This document shows, one piece after another, positions 40,649 through 63,724 of a stretch of 64,000 bases of DNA. Made by a program: the position numbers and the translations under genes. Origin of the DNA: Trypanosoma brucei. Lineage: Eukaryota. The stretch spans positions 1,152,001 to 1,216,000 of the forward strand of contig CP000070.1 in the NCBI GenBank assembly GCA_000002445.1. The letters are read 5' to 3'. The number at the start of each line of letters is the position of its first letter. The first letter of the stretch is position 1. The notes below the pieces were generated by a model that saw only the letters and a program-made list of their open reading frames with translations, searched no databases and was not told the DNA's origin.

Positions 40649-43600
40649 TCAATGTAGTATTGATCTCTTGAAAGCACGGGTAGATGTTTTACCACCACCA
40701 AATGGGGTAGTGGCAGCAGCTGATGGCAAAAAAGTGTCCCCGTCCGCTATCGAAGAACTTAAAACATGTCGCCGCTTTTGACTGTTGCGGGCCTTCACAG
40801 AGCTTAGTGAACGCTCATGTCCTCTATCAAGTGAATCATCCTGCCTTGATTGGGAGTCTGTTTGCTTGGATTGCGTAGCTGTTGCCTCAGTTTCTGCAGC
40901 CCGGCGCTCCTCCTGCACTACTGCGTACCGTAAAACACTCAACCGCTTCGTTATTGGTTGGTCTCTGATAGTTCCCTCTAACGGATCGTCCGCTGCAGAC
41001 GTCTTACTATCGTCTAATATCCTGCTCGTCTTCCTACGCGACGACACCTTCACTGCTGATGCCGCCACCGCCTCGTGAGGCGCTTCCTCCACTGAGCGTT
41101 CTTTTTCTCCAACGAACCTTACATCCTTCTCTTTTTGCTTCTGAGGGCCTTTGGTCCGGTGGTAGCCCTCCTTTCGCTTCGCCAAGCGCTCCGCTACGAT
41201 TTCAGCAACGCTACTCCCAAGTGGTGCAAATGCCATCGCATGATATCGACCACCTTGGCTACTTTCTTTAACGTGAGTTAGCATCGCCTCCACAATAAAT
41301 CTCGAATTCTGAAGGGCACTTTCCACCATCGCTTCGCACCGCTCCGCGCGCTGGGAAGACATCAACATACTCCCCTGCATTGTGTTGAGAAGTGGTCCCT
41401 GGCTACTCCGCAGAGCCTCCGCTTCCTCTAACGACTTATATGCCGCAAACCCTCGCTCTGCCAAGGCGGCTACAGTGCTCTGTAACACTTCATAGGCTGA
41501 GGTGAGCTCGGGTAGTACGCTCCCGGCACATGGATTCTCGGTAACACTTTGTATGATGGCTTTCGTTACATTGAGGATTGTGCGCCCCTCAGCCTCGATT
41601 AGAAGAAGCCCATAGGTAAGGAAGCTAGTGCTGCAGTCCAGTGATATCTCGAACACATTTCCATTGGGTGTTGTTGCCGCCACGAACACCATCGCAAGAT
41701 GTGCAACGAGTCGTTGCGTTATGGCGGCTGCGAGCATCGGCTGCCGAAGCCAGTGTATTTGTTCGTGTGCACGAGCAATGAGAGCGAAGCTCCTACCAAC
41801 GTACGGACGAACTGCACCTGCTGTCAGGGGGGAAACTCGCTGCCAATCCATCATTGGATGAATGAACCCAGCATCCTGGACGACACGTGTGATGCGCTGC
41901 TGTGGCGCCGAGGCAAGCATGCCGAGCAGAGCATCAACAAGAAGTTGGCAATGCTCTTCCACAAGCGCAAGGTGAACCTTCCGGAAGTCCGCAGTCTTCT
42001 GCTTGATCATGAGCACGGAACCACGAGAGGTTTTTGGGTCAGAGTTTAACCGCACAACAACATCCAACAAACACGGAACAATGAGTTCGTTAGTAATGAT
42101 GGGCGTCACCGCCATAGACAGGCACAAAGCGTCTGCAAGACTCTCCATGATTGCGCATTCGCATGTCTCAGGAGCGGCCTCAACGTCTAGTGAAACACGT
42201 TGGCATTTGTGGTGAAGCGCGTCAACAAACACGAGCAAAATGTCCGCAATTAAGGCCAGAAGCATGTCCTCATGCTCCGCCACGTGTTTAAGCACTAACT
42301 TGCTGTTGCTTTCTGCCATAAAAGTGCTGGTCGCGTCAAGCTGCTGATCTGTATCATCCAGCCGCTGCTTGTTCGCTCCGGAAACCTTAGACTTATCGCC
42401 TGGGTTGTTGTACTCTCCCTGTGCTTTCCTTCTTCGTCGGCGGTAGTTCCCTTCCCCTTCAAGCCGTTCAGCTTTCTCAACAAAGAGATCGATCCCACCA
42501 TGTACTTCATCAAACCTCTGTAAAAATGGTGCTGTGCGATCCACAACAAAAGAAATGAGGTTCAGAAACTTATTCGTTAACACTGACGAAACAAACTCCC
42601 TACTTACTCGTGCGCAAACGGAACTATGTGCGCCCGCGTTCTTACCGCCGTTGGCACTATGAATATCATTATACTCATTAATGCTTGCCTCATTTACCTC
42701 CGCTGGCTTCGATGCCTTCGCGATTGACGGTTGTAACGATGGCAGCAGCGTCACGTATGCTTTGACAAGCATACCCACTCCGTGTGTATAGCATCGAAAC
42801 AGGTTAGAGCGCAGCTCCTCAAGTTCCTGCATCAGTTCACCTACCTGATGCGCTTGCGTGCCTCCCTGCACCAAGGATGACGTACAACTTTCACCAATTA
42901 CCACCTTCATTCGGCGGACAGCGCCGCTCACGTGCAACATCGCCTTTTCCCACTGGGCAACAATTACTTCTACTAGCAGGGCTGCATGAAGCTCAGCGTG
43001 CTCATCCTCAACGGAGTCGTAAGCATCCCTGTCAACTTCGCAGTTGGAATCATCACCGACCAAATCTCGGGGACGATAAGAGGACATTGTACGTACAAAG
43101 CACTGTAGTACGGTACGATTCACATTGGTGAGCAACAGGGCTTGCAAAATGTCGCTTGTCAGGCGCACAACCTGTCTCACAGCGCTTACTGATAACTCCC
43201 GCAGTGACGGGCCCTTGTCATGCACCACGGGAACATACCGAAGAGATGGTAGCTCCTCCTCGCAAGAATTCCCACCGCCTCCTCCCCCTCGTACTCTTGT
43301 CATGGGCACATTCACTTTTTCATGCAGCGCCGGTCCATTGAGCATTCGGTACAACATACTACTTGGGTCCGGAGAGAAGTCAAACATACCCGCATGAACT
43401 TCCTCCGCTATACCACCCCAATACGATACTAAAATAACCTCTAGCTGATCAACGCAGGCAGTGAAGAGGCGATCAGCAAACGTGCTTGCGGCACCCGCTG
43501 CAGTGTGTGCTTGTACGTTTGCCTCCATCCCAGCACGGTCCTCCAGCTGAGTTAGTAAAGCCGCACTATACATGCGCAACTGCGTTGCTGAGCACTCCAG

Positions 43601-45580
43601 CACGTTGCTCATATCTACCCTGCCAATACTAAAAGTTGTAAAACGCTCGAAATCCCTTTCAGGAGTACGGAATGCTTCGAGAATTGCCTCAGCACGCTGG
43701 ACCGCATCGGACTCACCCATGTCCACATCAAAACCACCCACTTTAATACGGTCAGACACCGTGCCCTCGCTAAGGGCCGCCAACATGTTGCGACTGTTGA
43801 ACATCGTGGCTGTATCCTTTAGGTTGCATATGCTCCCATCCATATCCAACGGCGAGTCTAGCCAGTCACAGCTGGCCACTCGCTTCAATGTGCTAGAGAA
43901 ATCCATGTCCGGATTAGCACACATTCGAGCGCACGACGCGGCAAAGTCCGCATCCCCGCAATTGCCTGCGGCACCGTTCTCGCTGCTATCAGTCGGCATA
44001 AACTTTTGCATCCACTCATCGGCTTCTTGGCAGAGGCGACGTGCGGTGCTTTCCATTGTTCGTACGTGTTGATTTCGTATGACCCTCAAGTAATACTCCA
44101 GTGGGTGCTCCACTTTGGTCTCACCTCTGCTATTGTTATTGGAAATGGCTGGCAAGGTATTTCCGCTACCGTCAACACGTAGAAGTACTGCTTCTTCCCC
44201 ATCGCATTTTGTCCCCCAAATTTCTTCACCTTGATTGACGTTAACGTTCCTCAAGGCTGGCTCCGCCGGTATATCATCATCCGAGTTGCCGTCTTCTTTC
44301 CCCTCATCATCGGAGCAACGGCTTTCGTTCTCAATCACTTGGAGTTCTTGCCGAAGCCCCAAAATAGCTTCATTGTGCTTGGCACTGGAGGGTAATTTCC
44401 CCCTAGCAACCCAGCAGAAGTGGCGCAGTTTCACAGCTGCGATCGACACATCCATCATTCCGGATAGCATGTCTTCAATGAGGACAGTATCGGTCGCACT
44501 TACGTGCTGCAATTCTAGTGCCATCCGATCGTTAAGGTAAAGAGCAGCACGAAGAAGTGCCAATGCATACCGATAAGTAATGGTGATGCTCCCCCGTTGC
44601 TGCTGCTCAGAAAGACCAGTGCTACCACTGGTGTTGTTTTCATCCCCCTCTTCTAAACCTAGCATAACCGCATCTTCCAAGTTACAGTTCTCCTCTAGGT
44701 AAACCATCGCACGCCGCAAATTCAGCACAGCGGCCTCGAAATTACTACGGCCATCGCTTGTGTCACCATCGCGGCGACGGGCCAACGGTGTGCCGTACCA
44801 ATTCTCAAGCTCCTCGTTGTCAAGTAGAACGTATTCACTACTTTCACCACCATCAAACGCAATGTCTTCCAGTGCTCCCCTCGAAATACGCTGCCTCGCT
44901 TGCTTCTCGTCGTCATCAATACACCTAACGGACGAATTGTCATCCCTCGTGCTTGCTGTTGCTGCTGGTGGAAATGCGGAACCAGTGGCGGAGTACACCT
45001 CATCCCTCGTGTCATCCTCCGTCTCACAAAAGCTTTGTCCCTTTGAAAATCGTGTCGCCCTCGAAGACGCCATTTGATCCTCTTGAAGGTCCTGCAGCCG
45101 CTGGTGGTCGTGTTGCAATTCGGACCGTCGCCTTGGCACACGAGCCCCGCAGTGTTCATATATGACACCGGGTACCTTCCACACGGTTATAAACTTCGCA
45201 AGTCGTTCCCTAGTTACTTTGCATGCACAGAGGGATTGAAACAACTCCATCGTCGGGGCAACAATAGCTTCCCCATCTTCAACCGCTTTACGAAAGGAAT
45301 TAGCTAGCGAACCAACCGCATCACCAGTGAAAAGATCCGCGTCGTTATTGTACATGGTGTCGAGGGTCTCCTTCGAGACAACAAATGTGCTCACGCTATC
45401 ACGCAAGAGTTGCTGCAGCGCAGTGGCGGCGGCCTCCGCCTCAGAATCGACGGAGACAAGTAACTCCTGCTGAAGGTCATCGTGTGATGCATTGGCATAC
45501 ATGCGGCTAATGTATGTTTTGGGGTCAAAGGCGCAGCTCGTTAGGTCGACGTAAACATCGTGCCCCTTCTCGTCTCCCAT
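40649..45580 (-). CDS. Very large hypothetical protein, 1643 aa
   Basis: A single uninterrupted minus-strand ORF of 4.9 kb with non-repetitive composition. No catalytic motif recognised. The N-terminus FDPKTYISRM is weakly reminiscent of vesicle-tethering (CATCHR-type) subunits, but this is unverified. Confidence 0.6.
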   Translation of the reverse strand: MGDEKGHDVYVDLTSCAFDPKTYISRMYANASHDDLQQELLVSVDSEAEAAATALQQLLRDSVSTFVVSKETLDTMYNNDADLFTGDAVGSLANSFRKAVEDGEAIVAPTMELFQSLCACKVTRERLAKFITVWKVPGVIYEHCGARVPRRRSELQHDHQRLQDLQEDQMASSRATRFSKGQSFCETEDDTRDEVYSATGSAFPPAATASTRDDNSSVRCIDDDEKQARQRISRGALEDIAFDGGESSEYVLLDNEELENWYGTPLARRRDGDTSDGRSNFEAAVLNLRRAMVYLEENCNLEDAVMLGLEEGDENNTSGSTGLSEQQQRGSITITYRYALALLRAALYLNDRMALELQHVSATDTVLIEDMLSGMMDVSIAAVKLRHFCWVARGKLPSSAKHNEAILGLRQELQVIENESRCSDDEGKEDGNSDDDIPAEPALRNVNVNQGEEIWGTKCDGEEAVLLRVDGSGNTLPAISNNNSRGETKVEHPLEYYLRVIRNQHVRTMESTARRLCQEADEWMQKFMPTDSSENGAAGNCGDADFAASCARMCANPDMDFSSTLKRVASCDWLDSPLDMDGSICNLKDTATMFNSRNMLAALSEGTVSDRIKVGGFDVDMGESDAVQRAEAILEAFRTPERDFERFTTFSIGRVDMSNVLECSATQLRMYSAALLTQLEDRAGMEANVQAHTAAGAASTFADRLFTACVDQLEVILVSYWGGIAEEVHAGMFDFSPDPSSMLYRMLNGPALHEKVNVPMTRVRGGGGGGNSCEEELPSLRYVPVVHDKGPSLRELSVSAVRQVVRLTSDILQALLLTNVNRTVLQCFVRTMSSYRPRDLVGDDSNCEVDRDAYDSVEDEHAELHAALLVEVIVAQWEKAMLHVSGAVRRMKVVIGESCTSSLVQGGTQAHQVGELMQELEELRSNLFRCYTHGVGMLVKAYVTLLPSLQPSIAKASKPAEVNEASINEYNDIHSANGGKNAGAHSSVCARVSREFVSSVLTNKFLNLISFVVDRTAPFLQRFDEVHGGIDLFVEKAERLEGEGNYRRRRRKAQGEYNNPGDKSKVSGANKQRLDDTDQQLDATSTFMAESNSKLVLKHVAEHEDMLLALIADILLVFVDALHHKCQRVSLDVEAAPETCECAIMESLADALCLSMAVTPIITNELIVPCLLDVVVRLNSDPKTSRGSVLMIKQKTADFRKVHLALVEEHCQLLVDALLGMLASAPQQRITRVVQDAGFIHPMMDWQRVSPLTAGAVRPYVGRSFALIARAHEQIHWLRQPMLAAAITQRLVAHLAMVFVAATTPNGNVFEISLDCSTSFLTYGLLLIEAEGRTILNVTKAIIQSVTENPCAGSVLPELTSAYEVLQSTVAALAERGFAAYKSLEEAEALRSSQGPLLNTMQGSMLMSSQRAERCEAMVESALQNSRFIVEAMLTHVKESSQGGRYHAMAFAPLGSSVAEIVAERLAKRKEGYHRTKGPQKQKEKDVRFVGEKERSVEEAPHEAVAASAVKVSSRRKTSRILDDSKTSAADDPLEGTIRDQPITKRLSVLRYAVVQEERRAAETEATATQSKQTDSQSRQDDSLDRGHERSLSSVKARNSQKRRHVLSSSIADGDTFLPSAAATTPFGGGKTSTRAFKRSILH

Positions 45581-47212: not shown

Positions 47213-48799
47213 TCACTCATCAGCGGTGTATGCCAAGTACTTCGGGTCTTGGGTGGTCCTCAAGAAAGCACTTTGGACCATGCAACTTTCCATTTCTTGG
47301 GCGTATTGCTGACCGTAGCTGGCCATGCGCCCCATGACGTTCACCATGCGCAGCCTGAAATTAGTTAGAAACCTTTCCTCATAGTAAGCATGAAGTCTAT
47401 CACTCACATCCTTCGCGTACGCCGTGAAGGCATTGTCAGATCCCCCACCAACTTCGTTGCTGTGTATCCATAGGCATTGGACGTAGTCCACCGCCTCAAT
47501 AGCCGCGTCGAGATAAGTCACTTCAAATAGAATCCTCTCGTAAACCTCGCGCTTGTTACGCGACTGTTGCTTTTCAATTGCAAGTGCCGTGTTGGAACAC
47601 AACTCTGATGATTGATCTGCCGCACATGAAAGTTCACCACCCGCGGGAGAGGCGTGGAGAACGTCCGAGTACGCTTTAAGTGCATCGGCAACATCCTTTA
47701 GCGCCGTGATGTTATCCATTGAATTCTTCATGTAGGTAAAATACGGAGGCGCAGCCGCCGACAGGGCATCACGGTAGGTAGTAAGGTAGTGACTCACATC
47801 ACCCCAATACGCCAAATATCCCACAACGTTCGCGGTATCTCCAGAAGACTTGGGGTATTCACTGGGCGAACCATTAGCGAATGGCACTGCTTTCGGGAGT
47901 TCAGCTGTTTTCTTGGGAGCTGGTTCCGGCGGCGGTGCTTCTGCTTGTGAGCCCTTTCCACCCTTTACCCACGATCCGAACATCTTCACGATACTACGCA
48001 CGGCCTTCGTGGATGATCCTGTTATTGTCGACACACGCTCGGACCCCAGTATGCCTCCCTTACGCTTGCTGTGGGCAACGATAGGAGCATTGCGTACACG
48101 GAAATCCTCGAGGAGTACACGCATTTTCTCGACCCAGTCCTCAAAGGCCTCGCGTGGAAGCTGGAAGAAGTTGGGGGTGTACGTTGAGAAGTACACGACC
48201 TCGGGTAAAATGGCAATCTCACGCAGGAAACGTGCAATAGTGTGTTGCTGGGCCAGAAGAATATTCTCCTTTGTGATGAACGTTCCAAAGTCATCAAACT
48301 TGGACTTGGGAGGAAGCGGCGGGATGATCATTGTGGGGAACTGATAGGCCAACAAGGTGCGAAACTCCACCAATTCGCTGTAACGTCGATCGAGCTGTGC
48401 GGTAGACGAGGGCTCCCACGTGTTCCGTCCGATGCCGATGTCGGTACCACCCATGTGAGGCGCGACCGGCACGTCCGGCACGGAGTACGCCGACGAGTCC
48501 CCAGGTCTAACTGTAGTGACAATAGGAAAGAAGGTAATGGGTCGAATCATACCAGCACCAAGAACGGCGGACTCAACAGTAAACTTTGCCAGTGTGGGAA
48601 TGTTGAGCTTCGGCGCCGGGGGCGGGGTACTATCAACCACTGCAACAGGTTGCGGCTGCTCTTTTGCCTGTTGTGGTGCCTCCGGTTGTGACAACGGATG
48701 CTGAGGTTGGTGTACCAACTGTTCATGCATCTGCTGCGACTCCTGGAAGGGGTCGTCGATTTCCGTCCCAGGAAAGCTGCCGTCACCTGAAGGCATCAT
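47213..48799 (-). CDS. PX-domain protein (sorting-nexin-like), 528 aa
   Basis: Carries the PX signature RRYSELVEFRTLLAYQFPTMIIPPLPPK (RRYSDF...L and the PxxP-K phosphoinositide-binding loop), followed by R..FLREI. It has a Gln/Pro-rich N-terminus and a helical C-terminal half. Confidence 0.6.
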   Translation of the reverse strand: MMPSGDGSFPGTEIDDPFQESQQMHEQLVHQPQHPLSQPEAPQQAKEQPQPVAVVDSTPPPAPKLNIPTLAKFTVESAVLGAGMIRPITFFPIVTTVRPGDSSAYSVPDVPVAPHMGGTDIGIGRNTWEPSSTAQLDRRYSELVEFRTLLAYQFPTMIIPPLPPKSKFDDFGTFITKENILLAQQHTIARFLREIAILPEVVYFSTYTPNFFQLPREAFEDWVEKMRVLLEDFRVRNAPIVAHSKRKGGILGSERVSTITGSSTKAVRSIVKMFGSWVKGGKGSQAEAPPPEPAPKKTAELPKAVPFANGSPSEYPKSSGDTANVVGYLAYWGDVSHYLTTYRDALSAAAPPYFTYMKNSMDNITALKDVADALKAYSDVLHASPAGGELSCAADQSSELCSNTALAIEKQQSRNKREVYERILFEVTYLDAAIEAVDYVQCLWIHSNEVGGGSDNAFTAYAKDVSDRLHAYYEERFLTNFRLRMVNVMGRMASYGQQYAQEMESCMVQSAFLRTTQDPKYLAYTADE

Positions 48800-49437: not shown

Positions 49438-50661
49438 TTAACTTGCCAGAGACTCTTTTGCTTTTCTGGTCACATGCGTTTCCGGTTCCATTCCCAGCAC
49501 AAGTGCTTTTTGAAGATCAACCAGTGTTCCTTGCTTCATATCCATGTCACTCAGCAATGTCCGATGCCGTGCAGCGCTACCCAGTACATCGTCGCGCATC
49601 GTATTGCAGGCCGCCTTACGTCTCTCGTAATCAAGCAACAACTTCTTTGATCCTACCATAGGCATTTTTTCGCGTATTCTAAGATTACTGGCAGTGAAGT
49701 GGTCACGCTGACGCTTCGTTTGTGCTAACTTATCACGCAGGCCGTTCAGCTCTTCCTCCGTCGACGCTACCTGCCGCCGAAGTTGGCCGTTTTCAATCTT
49801 CATAAACTCTAGTTTTTCCTTTACATGTGTTAGAACATGAATTGTGGTGGTTACTTTACGTCGCAACCTCACAATGTCTTCGTTCCGCTCCTCAATCTTC
49901 TCATTCAGATTTGTGTTCTCAATTTTCAGTTGCTCAAAATCAATGAGGCTCATTCCATCCTGCTGCTGATCACGTTGAGCCATAGCTCTTTGCAACTCCT
50001 CCATTTCGTACCGCAACAAATTATACCGTATGCGCGCCCGCTGAATTAAGCGACGCTGAAGGGCATCCCTGTTGAGGAATTCGTCAATTTCCTCTTTGGT
50101 CAGTCGCTTGTTCGTGCGCACAAACTGCACACGCTCTGCAAGTTCTCTAATGTACTGACGAAACATCTCCTCGTGTTTTTGAGAAGAGTCAATAGTGCCC
50201 TGGTGTCGTGACTGCATTTCTGTAAAGGCCGCCTCTGCCGCCTCACAACGGGAACGTTGCTGTTGCCATTCTTCCCTCATCTGCCATATGGATATCCAGT
50301 ATTGTTGTTCTGCCTCGACTGTCATAGCCTGGTGTTGGTTCAGGTCTTCACCCTTCCGCTGCCGCTGGGCTGTGAAGTGTTGCGTCAGCAGTCGCTGAAG
50401 TGCTACACTGCGCTCGACAACACTGTTGTAGCGGTTGACAAGTTCCCTGTACTCCTCCTTGAAGGTGACGCGTGGCTCCGCTTCCACACCCTCAGCAGCC
50501 GCAGCAGAAGCTGCGGCTGCAACTGCAACGGTGGTGGTGAAGTTAGCCCGTTTCTCTGCCTCCCGTTGAGCACAGAACTCCTTCCAGCGCTGCTGGATGA
50601 CGGTGGCCGCCTTCATTTGCTGCTCCTCCTCCCTCACCTGCTGGTCATCATACTCGTACAT
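49438..50661 (-). CDS. Coiled-coil protein with an N-terminal IQ motif, 407 aa
   Basis: Contains an IQ-like motif, ATVIQQRWKEFCAQREAEKR, followed by a long heptad-rich charged sequence. Confidence 0.5.
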   Translation of the reverse strand: MYEYDDQQVREEEQQMKAATVIQQRWKEFCAQREAEKRANFTTTVAVAAAASAAAAEGVEAEPRVTFKEEYRELVNRYNSVVERSVALQRLLTQHFTAQRQRKGEDLNQHQAMTVEAEQQYWISIWQMREEWQQQRSRCEAAEAAFTEMQSRHQGTIDSSQKHEEMFRQYIRELAERVQFVRTNKRLTKEEIDEFLNRDALQRRLIQRARIRYNLLRYEMEELQRAMAQRDQQQDGMSLIDFEQLKIENTNLNEKIEERNEDIVRLRRKVTTTIHVLTHVKEKLEFMKIENGQLRRQVASTEEELNGLRDKLAQTKRQRDHFTASNLRIREKMPMVGSKKLLLDYERRKAACNTMRDDVLGSAARHRTLLSDMDMKQGTLVDLQKALVLGMEPETHVTRKAKESLAS

Positions 50662-52117: not shown

Positions 52118-52723
52118 TTAAAATAGCGACATTTCAGCGTCCACCTCGGCCTCTTCTTCCTCCACTTGCACGACGGGGCGGGGGCCGTTGCTTTCAAGCG
52201 CCTCCCCTGCAAGCACGTGCTGGAGTTGGGCCTCGAAGTTGGACTGAGTAATGGTGAAGCTCTGCAAGAACTGCTGGCGCCACACAATTTTCCCATCAGC
52301 CGCAACAATGAATGCCATAGGGCACGACATCACGCTGAGGTTGGCCACATCGGCGTATGTCTTCCCCGTTGCTTTCTTGTCATCAAAGAGAATGTGCGGA
52401 GGCGCAAGCCGGAGGGGCTTCTTCGTGTTCTCGTCCACGATTTCCTTGCCGAGATATTTTTCGGTCTTCGCTTTGTCTGCGTCATTGCTGATCGCCACGA
52501 AGACGACACCCTTCGGGCCGTACTTCTCGGACAAAACAGTGAATTCCTCGTTGACAACATCAGCACCACGGTAAAAGGTATTAAAGAAGTAGAGGACATA
52601 CACCTTTCCATTCTCCAATTCCACCTTATCACCACGTATGGGCTCAAGGGCGGAGAGTGCAGGGGCAACTTGACCGAAGGACTTATCGTCGCAGTATGTC
52701 GTCACGTCAATTGTATCGGTCAT
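52118..52723 (-). CDS. Thioredoxin-fold, tryparedoxin-like protein lacking the CXXC active site, 201 aa
   Basis: The segment VYVLYFFNTFYRGADVV...KGVVFVAISND...AFIVAADGKIV parallels the tryparedoxin/TlpA pattern V.LYFSASWCPPCRGF...EVVF...D, but WCPPC is replaced by NTFYR. It ends in an acidic C-terminal tail. Confidence 0.55.
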   Translation of the reverse strand: MTDTIDVTTYCDDKSFGQVAPALSALEPIRGDKVELENGKVYVLYFFNTFYRGADVVNEEFTVLSEKYGPKGVVFVAISNDADKAKTEKYLGKEIVDENTKKPLRLAPPHILFDDKKATGKTYADVANLSVMSCPMAFIVAADGKIVWRQQFLQSFTITQSNFEAQLQHVLAGEALESNGPRPVVQVEEEEAEVDAEMSLF

Positions 52724-53574
52724 GATTACTTACTGCCGATGATATTTCAGTTATGTATAACAATTAAACCTCCTCTGTTTTCCTTCCTCTTGTATTTCCT
52801 GCCTATTAAAGGGTCTATCCAATAAGTTGTTACAGGTCGTGTAATATCCACCCAGGTTGTACGCGAGAAAACTGCAAAAAAAAGCGAGAAGAAGTAGCTT
52901 CGCTGGCAAGACAAATAAGATCACAGATATAAACCGACAGCATAGTTAGCAATACAATAAGAAGAATTTTGGGAGGACGCACATATAAGGTGTACTGAGG
53001 CACCGAAGAGTTTCCATACCGATCGAGCTTACCACATAAAGCACAAAAAAAGATAGCATTTCTTCCCGTATCAAAAAAAAATAATAATAAAACCCATGAT
53101 AATCCAAAAGTCAGTCTGCGTGTGTGTATAAGGGAAAGGTTTAATGAATATATATATATATATATATGTGCAGTGGCGTAAAGGTGATGTCGGCCGTGCT
53201 TAGTATTAATAATAATAGCCGTAACTACTGAAGCGTTCCTTGCTTCCTAAGGTGAAATAGTCTAACATTTTTCGAAATACAATTCTGGACACTGGCTTGC
53301 ATTTATCATTCTGTTACTTCTTTCTCTGTGTTTGATCGCGCCGTGTAAAGTAAAGCGCTTCACCAGGACCTCTATAGACCCACAAGGTGAATACAGGTGC
53401 AAATTTAATACAAATGAAATTTAACACTCCAAACCAGCGGCCTGAGTTACTTCTCCCGGGCGCGTGGGAAGACAAAAAAATAAACGAACGAAAAAAACTT
53501 TTTTTTAAAAAAAGATCATTTCCCTCCTTCTCTCTGTCGCCCTCTACTATCTGTAGATGTGTTGATTCCGTTTT

Positions 53575-55707
53575 TCATCCATTCTTCTCGTTCGTTTTAC
53601 CACCCAATGTGCGAACCCGCCTGAGGAGTGCCCCTGTGCGGGCGAACTGCTGGTCAAAAGCTGCGCTATTGGCCACGTCTCGGACAACACCACAGCACAA
53701 CTCCACTGTGTTGGAACATCTCTCACTGCACGCTAAGATGGCTGTCGGACTCTCAAGGGACGACAGAAGTTCAGACAACACCCGCGCACCACCCTGATGC
53801 AACCCGCTACCTTCATCTACCATGGACTCCAAACACGCGAGTAGAGAGGCAGGAACATCCCTCTCCTCACACTTGCTATTACAAAGCCACAAAAACAGCT
53901 CACCTGCGATAAGAGTGATGCCGTTCTGCACTTTATTATTCTCTGGAGTAAAAAGAGAGAGCTCCATGGCCGCTAGAGCAGCTGTATAAACACCTAAAGA
54001 GATCTGCCTCGAACAGGCATCGCTGTCCTTATCACACACATTCGAATTAGTGGAAGCGATATTCTCTTCTTTGAGGAGTCGCAGCAACCGTCTGCATAAC
54101 CTCAGCGCCTCCACAAACAATGGGCGGCTCACGGTCTTGTCCATTAGTACCGTTGCAAAGCACCGGTGGCGCAGGAGGCGTAATTTGAGGATATACTTCG
54201 AGAACTGTAAGCCCACCGAAGTATCCTGGGGCAACTTGTCCACCTCCTTTCCCAAGACCACCGCAATATCGACACATTTCCGAAGTGATGCGAGCTCGTC
54301 ACTCTTCTTGCACCTCGACAGTCGACATTGCACAGCCACATTCAAGTGTGCTCCGCAGAGCAGCTCCCTCAAACTTGCGGACACGAGCGTGGTGACCATC
54401 TTCACACTCTTTCCGACGCTCTCTTTGCCGGTTTCTCTTAGCCATCCTTTGGCAAGGGATAAAATACCATCTTCATTGTTTACGTAACCGACCTCAACTC
54501 TTAGTTCGCCAAGGCGTTGCCTCCACTCGCGGAGCACAAGAACCTTCGGTCCCGCAACACGAGCCGTATCGGTTGGTTGCTCTGACCTCATTAAAACTTC
54601 AGCGTATGTCGGTTTCCGCTTTCCTGACCTCTGTGGTGCCACCAAACCCGCACTCATAGTGCCATCGGTGCCCTTTCCTCCACGCAGCTCCCCTACCGCC
54701 CCCTTCGCATCCATTTCTTGTGCAAGAGCAAACTCAACTGTGAGGTTCCTCGGAGAAGAGGGATCGGACTCCCCTTCCCGCTGGCGTTTCAACTTCGGTT
54801 GCAACGTTGGTGGCTCTGCGTCGGCAGAAATAACGTGAGCCGCAGGGGTAAACCGTGGAATGTCCGCATCAGCAGCTTTTGCCGCGGGCTCTCGTTTGTT
54901 ACTTCCAGACTCCGCTCTCGGCGATGCTGCGGCCGTCTTTCTACATTCTTCCTTTCTCCGTGCACCTGCTATGGCAACTTGAAGTGTACCTCCGCCACGC
55001 GATACAGCGTCCTCCACGAGACCCTTTAGGGGTAGTTCTTCAACTACGCGCCAAGCAAGCGTGGAACCAGCCCTCAAATCGCTTACACCTTCGACTTCGG
55101 CAGCTTCAACCACGCCCCACTGCAATCGCCACACCCGCGCGGCATTAAAAGATGTGCGACCTTTGATTTGCTCTCCGCGGAGCAGTGATACCACATCCAC
55201 CCATGTTGCCTCCGCCGCTGCAGCGAAGGCGATGCCGGTGCCAGAAGGGGTACGGGCTCCAGGACAAATACACTGAAAGCTTATGACATCCACTTCGTCC
55301 GCGGAACGCACATTTGTAGTTAAAAGGAAACTGCACAAAAACCTACTACTGGTAGATATCAGTTGAAGTCGTTGTGGGCTGACGAAACGAGGAACGAGCT
55401 GAGCACAAGGCTGTGGTCCTCGGGGGTTTGTTAGGCCGCAATCATAGGATTCCACAACGAACGGACAGATGCCTGATGCACCAGTCAACCCGGTGTGCTT
55501 CACCAAAATCTCATGCCCTCCATTTCTCCCCTTCTTTGCGATTACTCGTGGTGACTGCTCGGCATTTGAGGGGAGCGTGCACTGCCACATGCCTGATGAA
55601 GGCGCTTTAATAAAACCGTCGCCGCTAGAGCACCCGCAGTTCTCGAATATGTGGATCCGGGGCATTGTCAAATAAGGGGCGTTCCAAATATGCCTGCAAA
55701 GTGTCAA
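53575..55707 (-). CDS. Hypothetical protein, 710 aa
   Basis: Complete minus-strand ORF. No motif recognised. The true start may be a downstream Met. Confidence 0.5.
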   Translation of the reverse strand: MTLCRHIWNAPYLTMPRIHIFENCGCSSGDGFIKAPSSGMWQCTLPSNAEQSPRVIAKKGRNGGHEILVKHTGLTGASGICPFVVESYDCGLTNPRGPQPCAQLVPRFVSPQRLQLISTSSRFLCSFLLTTNVRSADEVDVISFQCICPGARTPSGTGIAFAAAAEATWVDVVSLLRGEQIKGRTSFNAARVWRLQWGVVEAAEVEGVSDLRAGSTLAWRVVEELPLKGLVEDAVSRGGGTLQVAIAGARRKEECRKTAAASPRAESGSNKREPAAKAADADIPRFTPAAHVISADAEPPTLQPKLKRQREGESDPSSPRNLTVEFALAQEMDAKGAVGELRGGKGTDGTMSAGLVAPQRSGKRKPTYAEVLMRSEQPTDTARVAGPKVLVLREWRQRLGELRVEVGYVNNEDGILSLAKGWLRETGKESVGKSVKMVTTLVSASLRELLCGAHLNVAVQCRLSRCKKSDELASLRKCVDIAVVLGKEVDKLPQDTSVGLQFSKYILKLRLLRHRCFATVLMDKTVSRPLFVEALRLCRRLLRLLKEENIASTNSNVCDKDSDACSRQISLGVYTAALAAMELSLFTPENNKVQNGITLIAGELFLWLCNSKCEERDVPASLLACLESMVDEGSGLHQGGARVLSELLSSLESPTAILACSERCSNTVELCCGVVRDVANSAAFDQQFARTGALLRRVRTLGGKTNEKNG

Positions 55708-55967: not shown

Positions 55968-56984
55968 CTAGGATGACTCCATAACGACGGAGTGTTGGAG
56001 CAAGAAATCCAGAAGTAACTGCGGGTAGTGGTACCGGAAAACAGAAAGCGGCATACTGTACAGACCTCGTCCACAGGCTCCACCCCTGGTGTCGTTGCTT
56101 GATTTCCCGCTTTCTGCCTCTGACCCATCGGGAATAAAATACTGCACAACCAAATGCTCGGCAAAGTTTTGAGTGCCTTCATGTTCAGAAGCAACCCCAC
56201 GGTTCTTCTTTCTCTCCTGCTCTGTGGGTGGCTCACAAGCCGTAACACTCCTGGTTTTCTCTGCTGCAACCACCGAGGCTGCAGGGGTAATGCTGTGAAT
56301 CTCGACACTCGAGGCATCGCGGCATAAGTCTTTGGCACAGCCCAGCTCAAAGTTTTGTGCGGCTGGAGTAGGATGTGCCCCTTTCATACACGAATGTTTA
56401 AGACTGACCGCGTGGCGTTCGCTCCACTGACGTTCCAGAAGTAAAGCGGACTCATACGAGTCCTTACACCTAAGTTGGCGATGACATTTCTTTTTCTTAG
56501 CAGAGTTAAGGTACTGAGAGGAAGATTCCTGAAGTGACCACTCTCCCAAGCCTACAAGAAACGCCTCATCATCCCCATCGTCTGCATCGGAGCGCTTTCC
56601 ATTGGCAGCACCGCTGCTCACAAGTACACCGAGCTGCGACCTCAATATGTCCCCCTGACGTTCATAGTTTCTACATCTCTTTCTCGTCCATTCTGCAAGT
56701 TCGCGCTGTGTGGTCTCGCTCTCAGATAAATCTGTATCCAATACGGCCGCAAATGCGTGAGGAAACAGTTTACTGCGGAACTCCCATGTGCTTGTGGTCC
56801 TGTTCACCGGACTCTGCGCTTCTACGCAATACTCGAGTGCACTATCATCAGGGTTGGACAACGGTTCATTTACGCTACAGACTTTTGTTTGGTGGATGGA
56901 CATGAGTTCCGGTTGCAACTGATTGTTGTTGATGCGATTGAATTTGTAACTCTCCAGCTGGTCCTGCTCGCGACTTCTTCGCAA
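55968..56984 (-). CDS. Hypothetical protein, 338 aa
   Basis: Complete minus-strand ORF co-directional with the unit. The overlapping alternate-frame ORF at 55889..56350 is rejected. Confidence 0.45.
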   Translation of the reverse strand: MRRSREQDQLESYKFNRINNNQLQPELMSIHQTKVCSVNEPLSNPDDSALEYCVEAQSPVNRTTSTWEFRSKLFPHAFAAVLDTDLSESETTQRELAEWTRKRCRNYERQGDILRSQLGVLVSSGAANGKRSDADDGDDEAFLVGLGEWSLQESSSQYLNSAKKKKCHRQLRCKDSYESALLLERQWSERHAVSLKHSCMKGAHPTPAAQNFELGCAKDLCRDASSVEIHSITPAASVVAAEKTRSVTACEPPTEQERKKNRGVASEHEGTQNFAEHLVVQYFIPDGSEAESGKSSNDTRGGACGRGLYSMPLSVFRYHYPQLLLDFLLQHSVVMESS

Positions 56985-58747: not shown

Positions 58748-60232
58748 TTATACTTTCTCAGCTCTACGCAAGTCATAAACTGGAGGAGCCACATCCTGCT
58801 CCACTACCTCATTGTACATGTGTGGACTCCAGCTAAGCAAGTGTGGATAAAAGATATAATTTTGTCCACTGCGCTCGCGCTGCACGCGTTTCGAAAGACA
58901 TCTTTCGATACTCTCTTCCGAAACTACAATTTGAGTACCATCGATTAACTTCAAGTATTGTAGCGTTCGCATGACATCCGCTTCCGACATGAACGTTGCT
59001 TGCACAAGATAGTCCAGTGTGACGCAGTGACTTTCCTCAATCGCGCGAGCAAGGGTTGAAACGATCGTGTCGCCCCAGTATCCCAGGTAAAGCTTCTCCC
59101 CCAGGTCGCTCAGCGGCTTCTCAGGTGAGCCTATTTTCCCCTCGCGACGAGACAGTTCATAGCTAAGTTCAATGAGAAACCGCCCTATCCCACGACTCTG
59201 GAACTGTGGCAGTACGAGTATGCAAGAGAGATTGTACATCTCCGGTGTCGTCTTCTCTTTGCTGAAGTAGCCAAGCACTTCCAAACCATGTGGTTGTATA
59301 CTGCAGAGCACGTAAAACAGAAAGGGCGTCATGTCATGATCAAGAGCTTTATGGTCAAGGAACAGTTTGGATAGAAGGGCCAAGTGCTCGCAAAATGTGG
59401 GCTCAGCTACTCCATCAATCTCTACCACGGTGAGATTCCGTATGGGATCGCGATATATTTCATTTCCCGGTGGAAAGCGGGAGCAAACTAGACGGACGTG
59501 GCGCAACACATCTTCATGTTCCGAAAAGGGCTGTAAGCAAAAGGGACATATATGAAGCACAAAAGATGTAAAAGCAACGGAAGAACGCAGAGCATTATCG
59601 CGACTATCTTGGCGCAGTTGTAGCTCCATGTCACCTGTGAAGTATTCTGCGTTCTGCTTGAAGCCTTGCTGCACCTGCGGTCGCGCAAGATGGTACGGCG
59701 AGAAGTACCACGTCTCCACTTCATATGGGCCCATGCAAATACGTTGAACATTCTTCGGTCGATAAAAAAACGAACTCTCCTTCCGCGTTCTGGTAGTTGT
59801 TACCTTATCACAATTTGGTGTCGCACCTCGCTTTGCTGCGGAACCTGCCGTAGCGCCGTTGGATCCACTCTCCTCCTGCTCTGCCACCAAACGGCTTTGC
59901 CCACGCGTGGTGATGCCGCAGCCTGTTGGCTTACTCACCTGCTGTTTGTCCGCCTGCCGGCCTTGTCTCCGCTCCCTCAATGCGCTACCGGGGAGCCAAC
60001 GGTCCATGCGACTGTCCTGTTCCACGTAGTGAACGTAGTACAGAAGCTGCCCCGTGTGCGCATCATGTGCAACCTCTTGTATAATAGCGGCATGAAATGT
60101 TTCGTGGAGTGTCGCATAAACCTTCTGCCGCACCTCAAACATTACCATGTCCAAAGGTGTGACACCTGGTTCTTTCTTCCTGTAGGTTCCCCTCTTCACT
60201 CTGTGGTCCGATAACTTTGGTTTCCTCGCCAC
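58748..60232 (-). CDS. MYST-family histone acetyltransferase, 494 aa
   Basis: The acetyl-CoA-binding core LSCILVLPQFQSRGIGRFLIELSYELSRREGKIGSPEKPLSDLG is near-identical to the MYST consensus. It has an upstream C2HC-like zinc finger (CPFCLQPFSEHEDVLRHV) and an N-terminal chromo/tudor-knot-like segment (YYVHYVEQDSRMDRWL). Confidence 0.8.
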   Translation of the reverse strand: MARKPKLSDHRVKRGTYRKKEPGVTPLDMVMFEVRQKVYATLHETFHAAIIQEVAHDAHTGQLLYYVHYVEQDSRMDRWLPGSALRERRQGRQADKQQVSKPTGCGITTRGQSRLVAEQEESGSNGATAGSAAKRGATPNCDKVTTTRTRKESSFFYRPKNVQRICMGPYEVETWYFSPYHLARPQVQQGFKQNAEYFTGDMELQLRQDSRDNALRSSVAFTSFVLHICPFCLQPFSEHEDVLRHVRLVCSRFPPGNEIYRDPIRNLTVVEIDGVAEPTFCEHLALLSKLFLDHKALDHDMTPFLFYVLCSIQPHGLEVLGYFSKEKTTPEMYNLSCILVLPQFQSRGIGRFLIELSYELSRREGKIGSPEKPLSDLGEKLYLGYWGDTIVSTLARAIEESHCVTLDYLVQATFMSEADVMRTLQYLKLIDGTQIVVSEESIERCLSKRVQRERSGQNYIFYPHLLSWSPHMYNEVVEQDVAPPVYDLRRAEKV

Positions 60233-62650: not shown

Positions 62651-63724
62651 TTACGCGACATATTCTACGATATCCCGTAGCGCCTTGAGGAACATTTCAT
62701 TGTCCACTTTAGTGATAACATTGCAGTTGCGCCAGCGACCCTTTTTCGCCATGGACTGTTCCGTGCCATACCAATCGATGCATGTCGCCCCCCTTGTTTC
62801 CCTTCCATGCAATTCGACAGTTACGTATGTGAGGAAGCTGTCGAGTACACTTTCGGGGCGGATGGCAACCAGCACAGCTACAGCGTCCGGAACAACGCAC
62901 GTAACATCTTGCGTTGCCTCAGCGTCACCGGTGTCTGCTCTTGTGCCATCATCGTGAATACGAGTGAATGCCTCCAAACGCTGAAACAGTTTTTCAATAA
63001 ACTCCTGCCATTTGTTTTGATTTACCGCCACGCGGCCATTGGGAGTCAATTCTCTGTTCACCAACTTATCATAAAACCCCCACGTCATGGGGGAGTTAAC
63101 AGTTACCTCCCAATTAACCAACTGTACCGGACACTTCCACCCCTTGTGCTGCAGCACCACGACCCCCGCTTCCGGATCGCAGTGGCTGTTAAACTCAGCC
63201 GCCATGTTGGAGTTGCCCTTGCTTTCACTGGTGCCGTTCATGATGACAATGCCAGGTATCGTATCTGTCCCAAGTTTGGAAAACAAATCGGGGTTCAAAC
63301 GAAGGGCCAATGCCACATTTGTAAGGGGGCCCAACGCAACCAACTGGTACACCACATCATCTGACGGCTCTGCCTCCTCAAGTATTTTCAGTATCTCCAG
63401 TGCGGCATGTCTTTTAGGTTGAAGAGCCACACGCTTAGATGGTGGAAATCCCGCATCACCAAAGCCGTCCGAGCCGAAGCCGCCCCACTGCACAGTCTCC
63501 CGCTCCCCCACGAGGGGTCCCTCTGCCCCACGAAAAAACGGTATATCTGCGTCATACAAATCCAGAAGTTTGCCGATATTTTCCATACCTTGGTTAACCT
63601 CCACATTTCCCCACACAACAGTGATGGCAATGACTTCCACATCAGGCTGTGTCATAGCCAACATGATGGCTATGGCATCGTCACCGCCACAATCGGTGTC
63701 GATGATAAGTTTTCGATGAACCAT
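62651..63724 (-). CDS. Inosine-uridine-preferring-type nucleoside hydrolase, 357 aa
   Basis: The N-terminal aspartate cluster IIDTDCGGDDAIAI is the nucleoside-hydrolase fingerprint DxDxxxDD. The length is typical of the family. Confidence 0.85.
   Translation of the reverse strand: MVHRKLIIDTDCGGDDAIAIMLAMTQPDVEVIAITVVWGNVEVNQGMENIGKLLDLYDADIPFFRGAEGPLVGERETVQWGGFGSDGFGDAGFPPSKRVALQPKRHAALEILKILEEAEPSDDVVYQLVALGPLTNVALALRLNPDLFSKLGTDTIPGIVIMNGTSESKGNSNMAAEFNSHCDPEAGVVVLQHKGWKCPVQLVNWEVTVNSPMTWGFYDKLVNRELTPNGRVAVNQNKWQEFIEKLFQRLEAFTRIHDDGTRADTGDAEATQDVTCVVPDAVAVLVAIRPESVLDSFLTYVTVELHGRETRGATCIDWYGTEQSMAKKGRWRNCNVITKVDNEMFLKALRDIVEYVA

What the first reader, a model, noticed from the sequence alone, without database searches (positions are those of the whole stretch)
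52118..52723. Tryparedoxin-fold paralogue with the WCPPC redox motif replaced by NTFYR
The protein aligns in pattern to tryparedoxin/TlpA-like thioredoxin-fold proteins. It has hydrophobic beta1 'VLYFF', the Arg-Gly immediately after the active-site position, 'VVFVAISND', and a cis-Pro region. However, both active-site cysteines are absent (FNTFYRG instead of SWCPPCRG). This predicts a redox-inactive pseudo-oxidoreductase, possibly a substrate-binding or scaffold paralogue. The acidic C-terminal tail (VVQVEEEEAEVDAEMSLF) is also atypical.
Basis: partly seen in the sequence, partly recalled or inferred. Interest (0 to 1): 0.55.

Follow-up and report, generated by a model that had tools for sequence, protein, structure and literature searches.

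The report
Cysteine-less thioredoxin-fold protein with acidic tail
This Trypanosoma brucei gene (Tb927.7.4520) encodes an abundant thioredoxin-shaped protein that has permanently lost both redox cysteines and carries a conserved acidic tail ending in phenylalanine; it belongs to an undescribed family found in many protists, so it very probably binds partners and does not do redox chemistry.

The parts
52118..52723 (-). Complete CDS of Tb927.7.4520 (201 aa, 22.3 kDa, pI 4.6), stop codon included
   Evidence: identical to P0055/Q57X68; gene ID from PMC9585242
52196..52702 (-). TlpA/Prx-type thioredoxin-fold domain (about residues 8-176)
52559..52588 (-). Ex-active-site segment F46-FNTFYRGA-D55 (end of beta1, loop, start of helix 1)
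   Evidence: F[NST]TFY[RK]G[AG] in 56/56 kinetoplastid-type sequences that cover it; family-wide consensus W-A-K-[FY]-x-K-G-[DG]-[YF]
52562..52573 (-). Y51-R52-G53-A54, the four residues occupying the C-x-x-C positions (codons TAC CGT GGT GCT)
   Evidence: register; codons
52319..52327 (-). S133-C134-P135: cis-Pro loop of the fold, with the only conserved cysteine at the cis-Pro minus 1 position
   Evidence: SCP in 54/57 kinetoplastid-type sequences; Pro kept in only 42/106 wider-family domains
52262..52282 (-). W148-R149-Q150-Q151-F152-L153-Q154 at the end of beta4; W148 is the most conserved residue of the whole family
   Evidence: W in 99/100 wider-family domains; R/H/K at 149; E/Q at 150
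52175..52189 (-). N179-G180-P181-R182-P183 motif closing the folded domain
   Evidence: invariant P181 and P183 and near-invariant G180 in A1; NG..P in 48/85 wider-family members
52121..52174 (-). Disordered acidic tail, residues 184-201 (net charge -7)
   Evidence: pLDDT below 50 for residues 185-201; family tails have mean charge -7.3 over the last 20 aa
52121..52132 (-). C-terminal tip M198-S199-L200-F201-COOH
   Evidence: xSLF in 53/57 kinetoplastid-type sequences; 70/85 wider-family members end in F/Y/W against 0/35 CXXC relatives

Best explanation
Tb927.7.4520 is a redox-dead, non-catalytic member of the TlpA/peroxiredoxin-type branch of the thioredoxin fold. It belongs to an old eukaryotic family with three parts: a Cys-less domain, an NGPxP cap, and a disordered polyanionic tail ending in an aromatic residue. 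Shown: the fold; the permanent loss of both CXXC cysteines (Y51 and A54); strong purifying conservation of the remodelled ex-active-site loop (aromatic at 50, basic at 52, G53), of W148-R149-(Q/E)150 and of the tail tip; the modular reuse of 'domain plus tail' behind unrelated N-terminal modules; and high abundance as a free, small, soluble species. Inferred: the folded domain acts as a ligand- or peptide-binding module, using the three loops that form the substrate groove in thioredoxin-fold enzymes but without thiol chemistry. Also inferred: the tail acts as a flexible tether whose free-carboxylate, hydrophobic-aromatic tip (phi-S-L-F-COOH) docks transiently into a pocket on a basic partner, in the manner of other acidic-tail/aromatic-tip motifs. 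The partner is unknown. Weak hints point to the translation apparatus or basic ribosomal proteins.
For: Fold. Loss of CXXC and its register. Conservation at 47-86% identity across Kinetoplastea with the motif invariant. Wider family: 141 representatives at E<=1e-10, and of the 226 domains that cover the motif 156 have no Cys at either CXXC position, 6 have one and 64 have both; members in choanoflagellates and a labyrinthulomycete. Tail as a family trait: 70/85 end in F/Y/W and mean charge is -7.3, against 0/35 and +0.4 in CXXC relatives. Tail disordered in the model. Modular fusions that keep the tail: sigma-class GST in 3 proteins, RanBD, and TM plus coiled coil. The uL4 fusion has lost the aromatic tip. 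Native SEC300: peak at fraction 36 of 47, between the enolase dimer (34-35) and calmodulin (36-37), 61% coverage, intensity 3.8e10, and no mention in the list of 234 predicted complexes. The cis-Pro is lost in 60% of the family, which argues against any conserved thiol-disulfide function. No close prokaryotic relative was found.
Against: No partner or ligand has been identified. The SEC data show no stable complex. The eIF4E/4G co-purifications (ratios 7-16 with three baits) sit among typical abundant acidic background proteins. I could not inspect model coordinates, so the clustering of conserved residues into one groove is inferred from fold topology and was not measured. Y51 and C134 are invariant within kinetoplastids and could reflect unconventional catalysis. 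An acidic tail could also be mainly a solubility or entropic feature, although that does not explain the conserved aromatic end.
Confidence: 0.6

Rival explanations
1. It is still an enzyme that uses unconventional residues. Either Tyr51, which sits at the N-cap of helix 1 where Tyr/Ser/Cys-type GSTs carry their catalytic residue, activates glutathione or trypanothione, or Cys134 at the cis-Pro minus 1 position acts as a relocated monothiol.
For: Y51 is invariant in 56/56 and C134 in 54/57 kinetoplastid-type sequences. Relatives are fused to sigma-class GSTs that carry the catalytic-Tyr signature. The catalytic-residue position in GSTs is established knowledge, not tested here.
Against: Neither residue is conserved in the wider family: position 51 is A/H/N/D/Y/S, position 134 is variable, and the cis-Pro is lost in 64/106. 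No GSH-binding signature was detected.
Confidence: 0.12
2. It is an acidic escort or chaperone for basic ribosomal or RNA-binding proteins (for example uL4). The acidic domain and tail shield basic segments before assembly.
For: One lineage has uL4 fused through an Ala/Pro/Glu hinge to the module, seen in two sequencing runs, and that tail has lost its aromatic tip. The whole protein is acidic: domain -5, tail -7, pI 4.6. The Leishmania orthologue is more abundant in early-log cells. It is recovered with eIF4E/4G complexes and ribosomal proteins.
Against: The fusion evidence comes from one lineage and could be an assembly chimera. The protein is far more abundant than a dedicated chaperone usually is and runs free on SEC. 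It is absent from the stored supplements of the polysome study.
Confidence: 0.1
3. The tail mimics the C-terminal peptide of the ribosomal P-stalk and engages or competes for translational GTPases.
For: T. cruzi P0 ends in EDDDDDFGMGALF and P2beta in EEEDDDMGFGLFD. Some family tails are very similar, for example P0072 ...DDDDMGALF with z=3.2.
Against: As a group the tails are no more stalk-like than composition-matched shuffles: median z 0.19 (kinetoplastid) and 0.27 (wider family), with 8-9% at p<0.05. Many subfamilies end in -GDY, -FDW or -DSDLGF. There is no ribosome-size SEC peak beyond about 0.2% traces, which enolase and calmodulin also show.
Confidence: 0.07
4. One reading: a kinetoplastid tryparedoxin paralogue that lost WCPPC.
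For: Thioredoxin_8, the Pfam family that holds tryparedoxins, is the top Pfam hit.
Confidence: 0.03
5. A sequencing error or a decaying pseudogene.
For: None beyond the missing cysteines.
Against: Intact ORFs with the same motif in more than 50 species. Three nucleotide changes are needed to restore CXXC. There are 11 peptides, 61% coverage and high intensity in proteomics.
Confidence: 0.01

Closest known systems
TlpA / ResA / DsbE(CcmG)-type membrane-anchored thiol-disulfide oxidoreductases (TlpA-like family)
   Different: No CXXC (Y-R-G-A instead). Cytosolic and soluble, with no signal or anchor. Eukaryotic. Extra C-terminal helix, NGPxP cap and acidic aromatic-tipped tail. The cis-Pro is dispensable in most of the family.
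PRX-like1 group (Geobacillus 2ywi, Sinorhizobium 3u5r; uncharacterised)
   Same: Best sequence-level PDB hit (E=7.6e-6 with the profile) and the only solved relatives that cover nearly the full length (Foldseek TM about 0.6).
   Different: 2ywi has two cysteines in a C-x-x-C arrangement (CNHC) in this region (alignment). It is bacterial and has no acidic tail. Its function is also unknown.
Tryparedoxin / nucleoredoxin (Pfam Thioredoxin_8), including the weakly active or inactive RdCVF/NXNL proteins
   Same: Same Pfam family by HMM score. RdCVF is, from my own knowledge, a precedent for a non-enzymatic signalling member of that group.
   Different: No specific similarity to tryparedoxin. No WCPPC. 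Different tail. Not restricted to kinetoplastids.
T. brucei Trx2 (PMC6783113)
   Same: A precedent in the same organism for a thioredoxin-type protein that lacks disulfide-reductase activity and works as a chaperone (abstract seen).
   Different: By its abstract Trx2 is mitochondrial and redox-regulated; from my own knowledge it keeps its cysteines. Tb927.7.4520 has none at the active site and shows no targeting signal that I could see.
Acidic C-terminal docking tails (ribosomal P-stalk CTD; from my own knowledge also the bacterial SSB tip and tubulin/EB1 EEY/F)
   Same: A disordered polyanionic tether that ends in hydrophobic or aromatic residues with a free carboxylate. A few members are near-identical to T. 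cruzi P0 over the last five residues.
   Different: Order-specific similarity to stalk tails is not significant for the family as a whole. The tips differ between subfamilies (LF, GF, DY, DW).

Membership tests
Thioredoxin-fold superfamily, TlpA/AhpC-TSA-like branch | Significant match to family profiles above the curated threshold | tested here: met
   Thioredoxin_8 34.1 bits (GA 27), AhpC-TSA 27.2 bits (GA 26); Redoxin 23.6 bits is below its GA of 26.6
Thioredoxin-fold superfamily, TlpA/AhpC-TSA-like branch | Thioredoxin fold with TlpA-type elaborations | tested here: met
Thiol-disulfide oxidoreductases (TlpA/ResA/CcmG, thioredoxin) | C-x-x-C active site at the N-terminus of helix 1 | tested here: not met
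   Y51-R52-G53-A54 occupies these positions; this holds in every kinetoplastid-type sequence that covers the motif
Thiol-disulfide oxidoreductases (TlpA/ResA/CcmG, thioredoxin) | Conserved cis-Pro loop facing the active site | tested here: inconclusive
   P135 is invariant in the A1 alignment, but Pro is kept in only 42/106 wider-family domains. The cis conformation cannot be verified without coordinates
Tryparedoxin | WCPPC motif | tested here: not met
   FYRGA occupies the equivalent positions
Tryparedoxin | Closer to tryparedoxins than to other thioredoxin-fold groups | tested here: not met
Tryparedoxin | Reduced by trypanothione and reduces peroxidases or ribonucleotide reductase | not testable with these tools
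   Needs a biochemical assay
Peroxiredoxin (AhpC/TSA) | Peroxidatic Cys in a P-x-x-x-[TS]-x-x-C motif | tested here: not met
   There is no Cys in residues 44-56. The only cysteines are C11 and C134
Ribosomal P-stalk-type C-terminal peptide | Acidic run followed by a hydrophobic or aromatic C-terminus | tested here: met
   Tail EEEEAEVDAEMSLF; family mean charge -7.3 and 82% aromatic ends
Ribosomal P-stalk-type C-terminal peptide | Order-specific similarity to stalk peptides beyond composition | tested here: not met
   Median z 0.19-0.27 against shuffles, and only 8-9% at p<0.05
Ribosomal P-stalk-type C-terminal peptide | Binds translational GTPases | not testable with these tools
   Needs binding assays or multimer structure prediction
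Cys-less 'domain + acidic aromatic-tipped tail' eukaryotic family (defined here) | W148, basic residue at 52, aromatic residues at 50 and 55, no CXXC, acidic tail ending in F/Y/W | tested here: met
   The T. brucei protein has F50, R52, W148 and the tail ...EMSLF. D55 replaces the aromatic residue in trypanosomatids, while bodonid-like sequences keep Y

The most novel reading that the evidence does not exclude
The Cys-less domain plus acidic aromatic-tipped tail is a previously unrecognised, ancient eukaryotic adaptor module. It uses its free C-terminal tip to dock on the translation or ribosome-assembly machinery, for example as an escort for uL4 or other basic proteins, or as a competitor at stalk-binding sites. 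It has been lost from the labelled model lineages and kept in protists, and in trypanosomatids it is one of the more abundant cytosolic proteins.
Probability: 0.1. Interest if true: 0.75.

Novelty: new variant of a known kind. Interest (0 to 1): 0.45.

Why it matters
Trypanosomatid redox metabolism is a drug-target field, and this abundant protein is annotated as 'thioredoxin-like / AhpC-TSA'. It has already been discussed in print as 'a different TXN' (PMC9362617), yet the sequence shows it cannot do CXXC chemistry. Recognising it as a pseudo-oxidoreductase prevents mis-assignment in redox network models. The work also defines a conserved protist-wide module (domain plus acidic aromatic-tipped tail) with testable predictions. 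One practical caution follows: C-terminal tagging would mask the free-carboxylate tip, so tagging should be N-terminal.

Tried and rejected
1. P-stalk mimicry of the tail. The resemblance was verified in the literature, but the shuffle test shows it is mostly compositional, so I downgraded it.
2. The tail docking back on its own domain. The tail has pLDDT below 50 and the domain is itself acidic in 93 of 102 members, so this is unlikely as a general electrostatic mechanism.
3. Genomic context. The neighbours are Sec5-like, PX, CCDC113/96, mitoribosomal L7/L12, MYST HAT and nucleoside hydrolase, all on one strand. This is a polycistron and carries no functional information.
4. NCBIfam gave no hit.
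5. The AFDB fold library was unavailable.
6. The second and third homology searches returned only unnamed metagenomic sequences or kinetoplastids again.
7. TrypTag and polysome-proteome supplements hold no entry for the gene, and the RIT-seq paper is not held.
8. Literature searches by accession and gene ID found only two table-level mentions.
9. The prokaryote scan found no close relative. The wide alignment was too divergent for that tool.
10. The singleton fusions (aconitase_C, C2, RanBD) are treated as hints at most.

Full report
**Observation.** The window holds an ATG-to-stop ORF at 52118..52723 on the minus strand. The translation is identical to the TREU927-type T. brucei protein Q57X68 and differs from the T. 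b. gambiense entry only at residue 2. The gene is Tb927.7.4520 on chromosome 7. The only cysteines are C11 and C134.

**Fold.**
- Pfam gives Thioredoxin_8 (E=3.4e-8, 34.1 bits, GA 27) and AhpC-TSA (27.2 bits, GA 26). Redoxin falls just below threshold. NCBIfam gives nothing.
- An AlphaFold2 model built on 24 orthologues is confident (pLDDT 84.3, pTM 0.82). It has a folded domain to about residue 176 and a disordered tail (residues 185-201, pLDDT below 50).
- The best sequence-level PDB relative is the uncharacterised 2ywi (E=7.6e-6 with the profile).

**Register of the lost motif.** Four lines of evidence agree that Y51 sits at the first cysteine and A54 at the second:
- the HMMER alignment to ResA;
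- the profile alignment, in which 64 genuine FWATWC[GP]PC domains fall in the same columns;
- the beta1 match GKVYVLYF/GKLVFFYF to tryparedoxin;
- the helix start at residue 52 in the model.

The phmmer alignment to 2ywi suggests a register three residues earlier, but it is outvoted by the other four. The codons are TAC (Y51) and GCT (A54), so three substitutions would be needed to recreate CXXC.

**Conservation.**
- The homology search found 54 proteins, all kinetoplastid or kinetoplastid-like, at 47-86% identity. They include Trypanosoma, Leishmania, Leptomonas, Phytomonas, Strigomonas, Angomonas, and MMETSP/EukProt transcriptomes that I take to be free-living kinetoplastids, though they carry no organism label.
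- F[NST]TFY[RK]G[AG] is present in all 56 sequences that cover the site. S-C-P135 is present in 54 of 57 and a C-terminal xSLF in 53 of 57.
- This excludes a sequencing error, a pseudogene or a lineage-specific loss.

**A wider family.**
- An exhaustive profile search of 1.84 billion representatives found 872 hits (141 at E<=1e-10). Re-aligned to the profile, 226 domains cover the motif: 156 have no Cys at either CXXC position, 6 have one and 64 have both (a further 11 are gapped there). The 64 are bacterial-style tandem FWATWCGPC proteins.
- The Cys-less relatives share the consensus TYxDDxxxGKxAPxL ... FWAKFxKGxY ... GKIVWRExFxQ ... NGxxP ... acidic ... aromatic.
- Across 106 such domains, W148 is present in 99 of 100, position 52 is K in 88, position 50 is F/Y in 83, and position 55 is Y/F/W in 93. 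The cis-Pro survives in only 42, and position 51 is variable.
- Labelled members come from the choanoflagellates Mylnosiga, Diaphanoeca (two paralogues) and Stephanoeca, and from the labyrinthulomycete Hondaea. The rest are unnamed metagenome or transcriptome sequences. Two contigs I inspected have sparse, fragmented gene calls, consistent with intron-bearing eukaryotic DNA.
- No close relative was found among 185,579 prokaryotic species genomes with the two most conserved peptides.
- I saw no labelled animal, fungal or plant member. Their absence was not tested.

**The tail.**
- Of 85 non-kinetoplastid Cys-less members with complete C-termini, 70 end in F (38), Y (24) or W (8). Mean net charge over the last 20 residues is -7.3. 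For the CXXC-bearing relatives the figures are 0 of 35 and +0.4. The 'atypical' tail is therefore a defining trait of the family.
- Subfamilies have different tips (...EMSLF...DMGALF...DYDSDLGF...GDY...FDW...DSDGLLF).
- Because T. cruzi P0 ends in EDDDDDFGMGALF and P2beta in EEEDDDMGFGLFD (PMC2704175), I tested for stalk mimicry. Compared with composition-preserving shuffles, the tails are not more stalk-like as a group (median z 0.19 and 0.27; 8-9% at p<0.05). A few members such as P0072 (...DDDDMGALF, z=3.2) stand out.
- The folded domain is itself acidic in 93 of 102 members (median -5; T. brucei domain -5, tail -7, whole-protein pI 4.6). Together with the low tail pLDDT, this argues against the tail docking back on its own domain.

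**Fusions.** The 'domain plus tail' unit follows unrelated N-terminal modules:
- a sigma-class (HPGDS-like) GST in three proteins, one from a Stephanoeca transcriptome and one seen on three contigs;
- a RanBP1 domain in Diaphanoeca;
- a TM helix plus a roughly 400-aa K/E-rich coiled coil in Diaphanoeca;
- eukaryotic ribosomal protein uL4, through an Ala/Pro/Glu hinge, in two sequencing runs. That member's tail ends ...EEYDEEEE with no aromatic tip.

Aconitase_C and C2 fusions are single or weak cases. The fusions show that the unit is a portable module. They do not agree on one pathway.

**Experimental data in the literature.**
- In native SEC300 correlation profiling of procyclic lysate (PMC5724185, supplementary Table 22), Tb927.7.4520 has 11 peptides and 61% coverage. 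It shows one sharp peak at fraction 36 of 47 (3.8e10) and about 0.2% traces in fractions 8-12. On the same sheet the enolase dimer peaks at fractions 34-35 (1.6e11) and calmodulin at 36-37 (1.1e11), and both show similar early traces. The gene does not appear in the file listing the 234 predicted complexes. The protein is therefore abundant, soluble and mostly free as a monomer or small oligomer.
- It co-purifies at ratios of 7-16 in three of the eIF4E/eIF4G pull-down tables (EIF4G4 and EIF4G3 baits are identifiable in the excerpts), next to RPLP2, calmodulin and RPIA (PMC9585242). I read this as weak evidence and possibly background.
- The Leishmania orthologue, very probably LINF_140006800, is higher in early-log promastigotes. 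That paper calls it 'a different TXN' (PMC9362617), an interpretation the sequence does not support.
- No paper in the searchable library studies the protein itself.

**Mechanism.** What is shown: a thioredoxin fold of the TlpA/Prx type, the ancient and strictly conserved loss of both redox cysteines, a conserved remodelled loop and Trp-Arg strand end, a conserved disordered acidic tail with an aromatic tip, modular reuse, and high abundance as a free species. What I infer (confidence 0.6): the protein is non-catalytic, the domain is a binding module built on the former substrate groove, and the tail is a flexible docking element whose free-carboxylate aromatic tip engages a basic partner transiently.

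Rivals:
- Unconventional catalysis through Tyr51 (GST-like position) or Cys134 (0.12). The weakness is that neither residue is conserved outside the kinetoplastid clade.
- An acidic escort for uL4 or other basic proteins (0.10).
- P-stalk mimicry (0.07).
- A tryparedoxin-derived paralogue (0.03).
- An artefact or pseudogene (0.01).

**Verdict.** Cys-less thioredoxin-fold proteins are a known kind. This particular family, with its tail and modular architecture, appears to be undescribed in the literature I could search. I rate it a new variant of a known kind, interest 0.45.

Noticed in passing
L003:26-1579 and L004:26-1579 (Logan ERR14949573 / ERR14949578): A transcript-like contig encodes eukaryotic ribosomal protein uL4 (5'-truncated) fused through an APAAEAEVEEEEESAAAPAAPKAAKK hinge to the Cys-less module. 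Its acidic tail ends ...GDEEYDEEEE and lacks the aromatic tip that 82% of the family has.
   Followed up: partly
P0075 and P0078 (Diaphanoeca grandis), P0105 (Stephanoeca diplocostata), P0114 (L005-L007): In choanoflagellates the same module, with tail ...DYDSDLGF (in P0075, P0078 and P0114) or ...DSDGLML (P0105), follows three different N-terminal parts: a TM helix plus a long K/E-rich coiled coil, a RanBP1 domain, and a sigma-class GST that carries the catalytic-Tyr signature LTYFDG.GRAEPIR.
   Followed up: partly
window 52319-52327 (-), residues S133-C134-P135: The only conserved cysteine sits immediately before the cis-Pro, next to where the nucleophilic Cys would be. It is kept in 54/57 kinetoplastid-type sequences but not in the deeper relatives (LH[AVTM]PQ, LGASA).
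   Followed up: partly
P0014 (UniRef A0A0A9WZ10_LYGHE): A 201-aa orthologue (70% identity, tail ...DGDISLF) is labelled 'Proline--tRNA ligase, Lygus hesperus'. This is almost certainly a trypanosomatid contaminant in an insect transcriptome carrying a wrong transferred name.
   Followed up: no
P0006 (T. cruzi Sylvio, 305 aa) and P0044 (L. tarentolae, 240 aa): These gene models carry N-terminal extensions of 106 and 41 residues that all other orthologues lack. They are probably mis-called start codons.
   Followed up: no
window 52166-52825 (+): A 219-aa TTG-initiated ORF runs antisense across almost the whole gene. I take it for a mechanical shadow ORF of the conserved minus-strand CDS and not a gene, but I did not search it.
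   Followed up: no
window 40649-63724 (-): All flanking ORFs are on the minus strand and are functionally unrelated: Sec5-like 40649-45580, PX-domain 47213-48799, CCDC113/CCDC96 49438-50661, two ORFs with no Pfam hit 53575-55707 and 55968-56984, mitoribosomal L7/L12 57561-58112, MYST acetyltransferase 58748-60232, and IU-nucleoside hydrolase 62651-63724. This is a typical trypanosome polycistronic unit.
   Followed up: yes
PMC9362617 (L. donovani proteomics), spot LdK.1201 / LINF_140006800: The Leishmania orthologue is treated in print as a redox 'TXN' that is up-regulated in early-log promastigotes. The sequence shows that it has no CXXC.
   Followed up: partly
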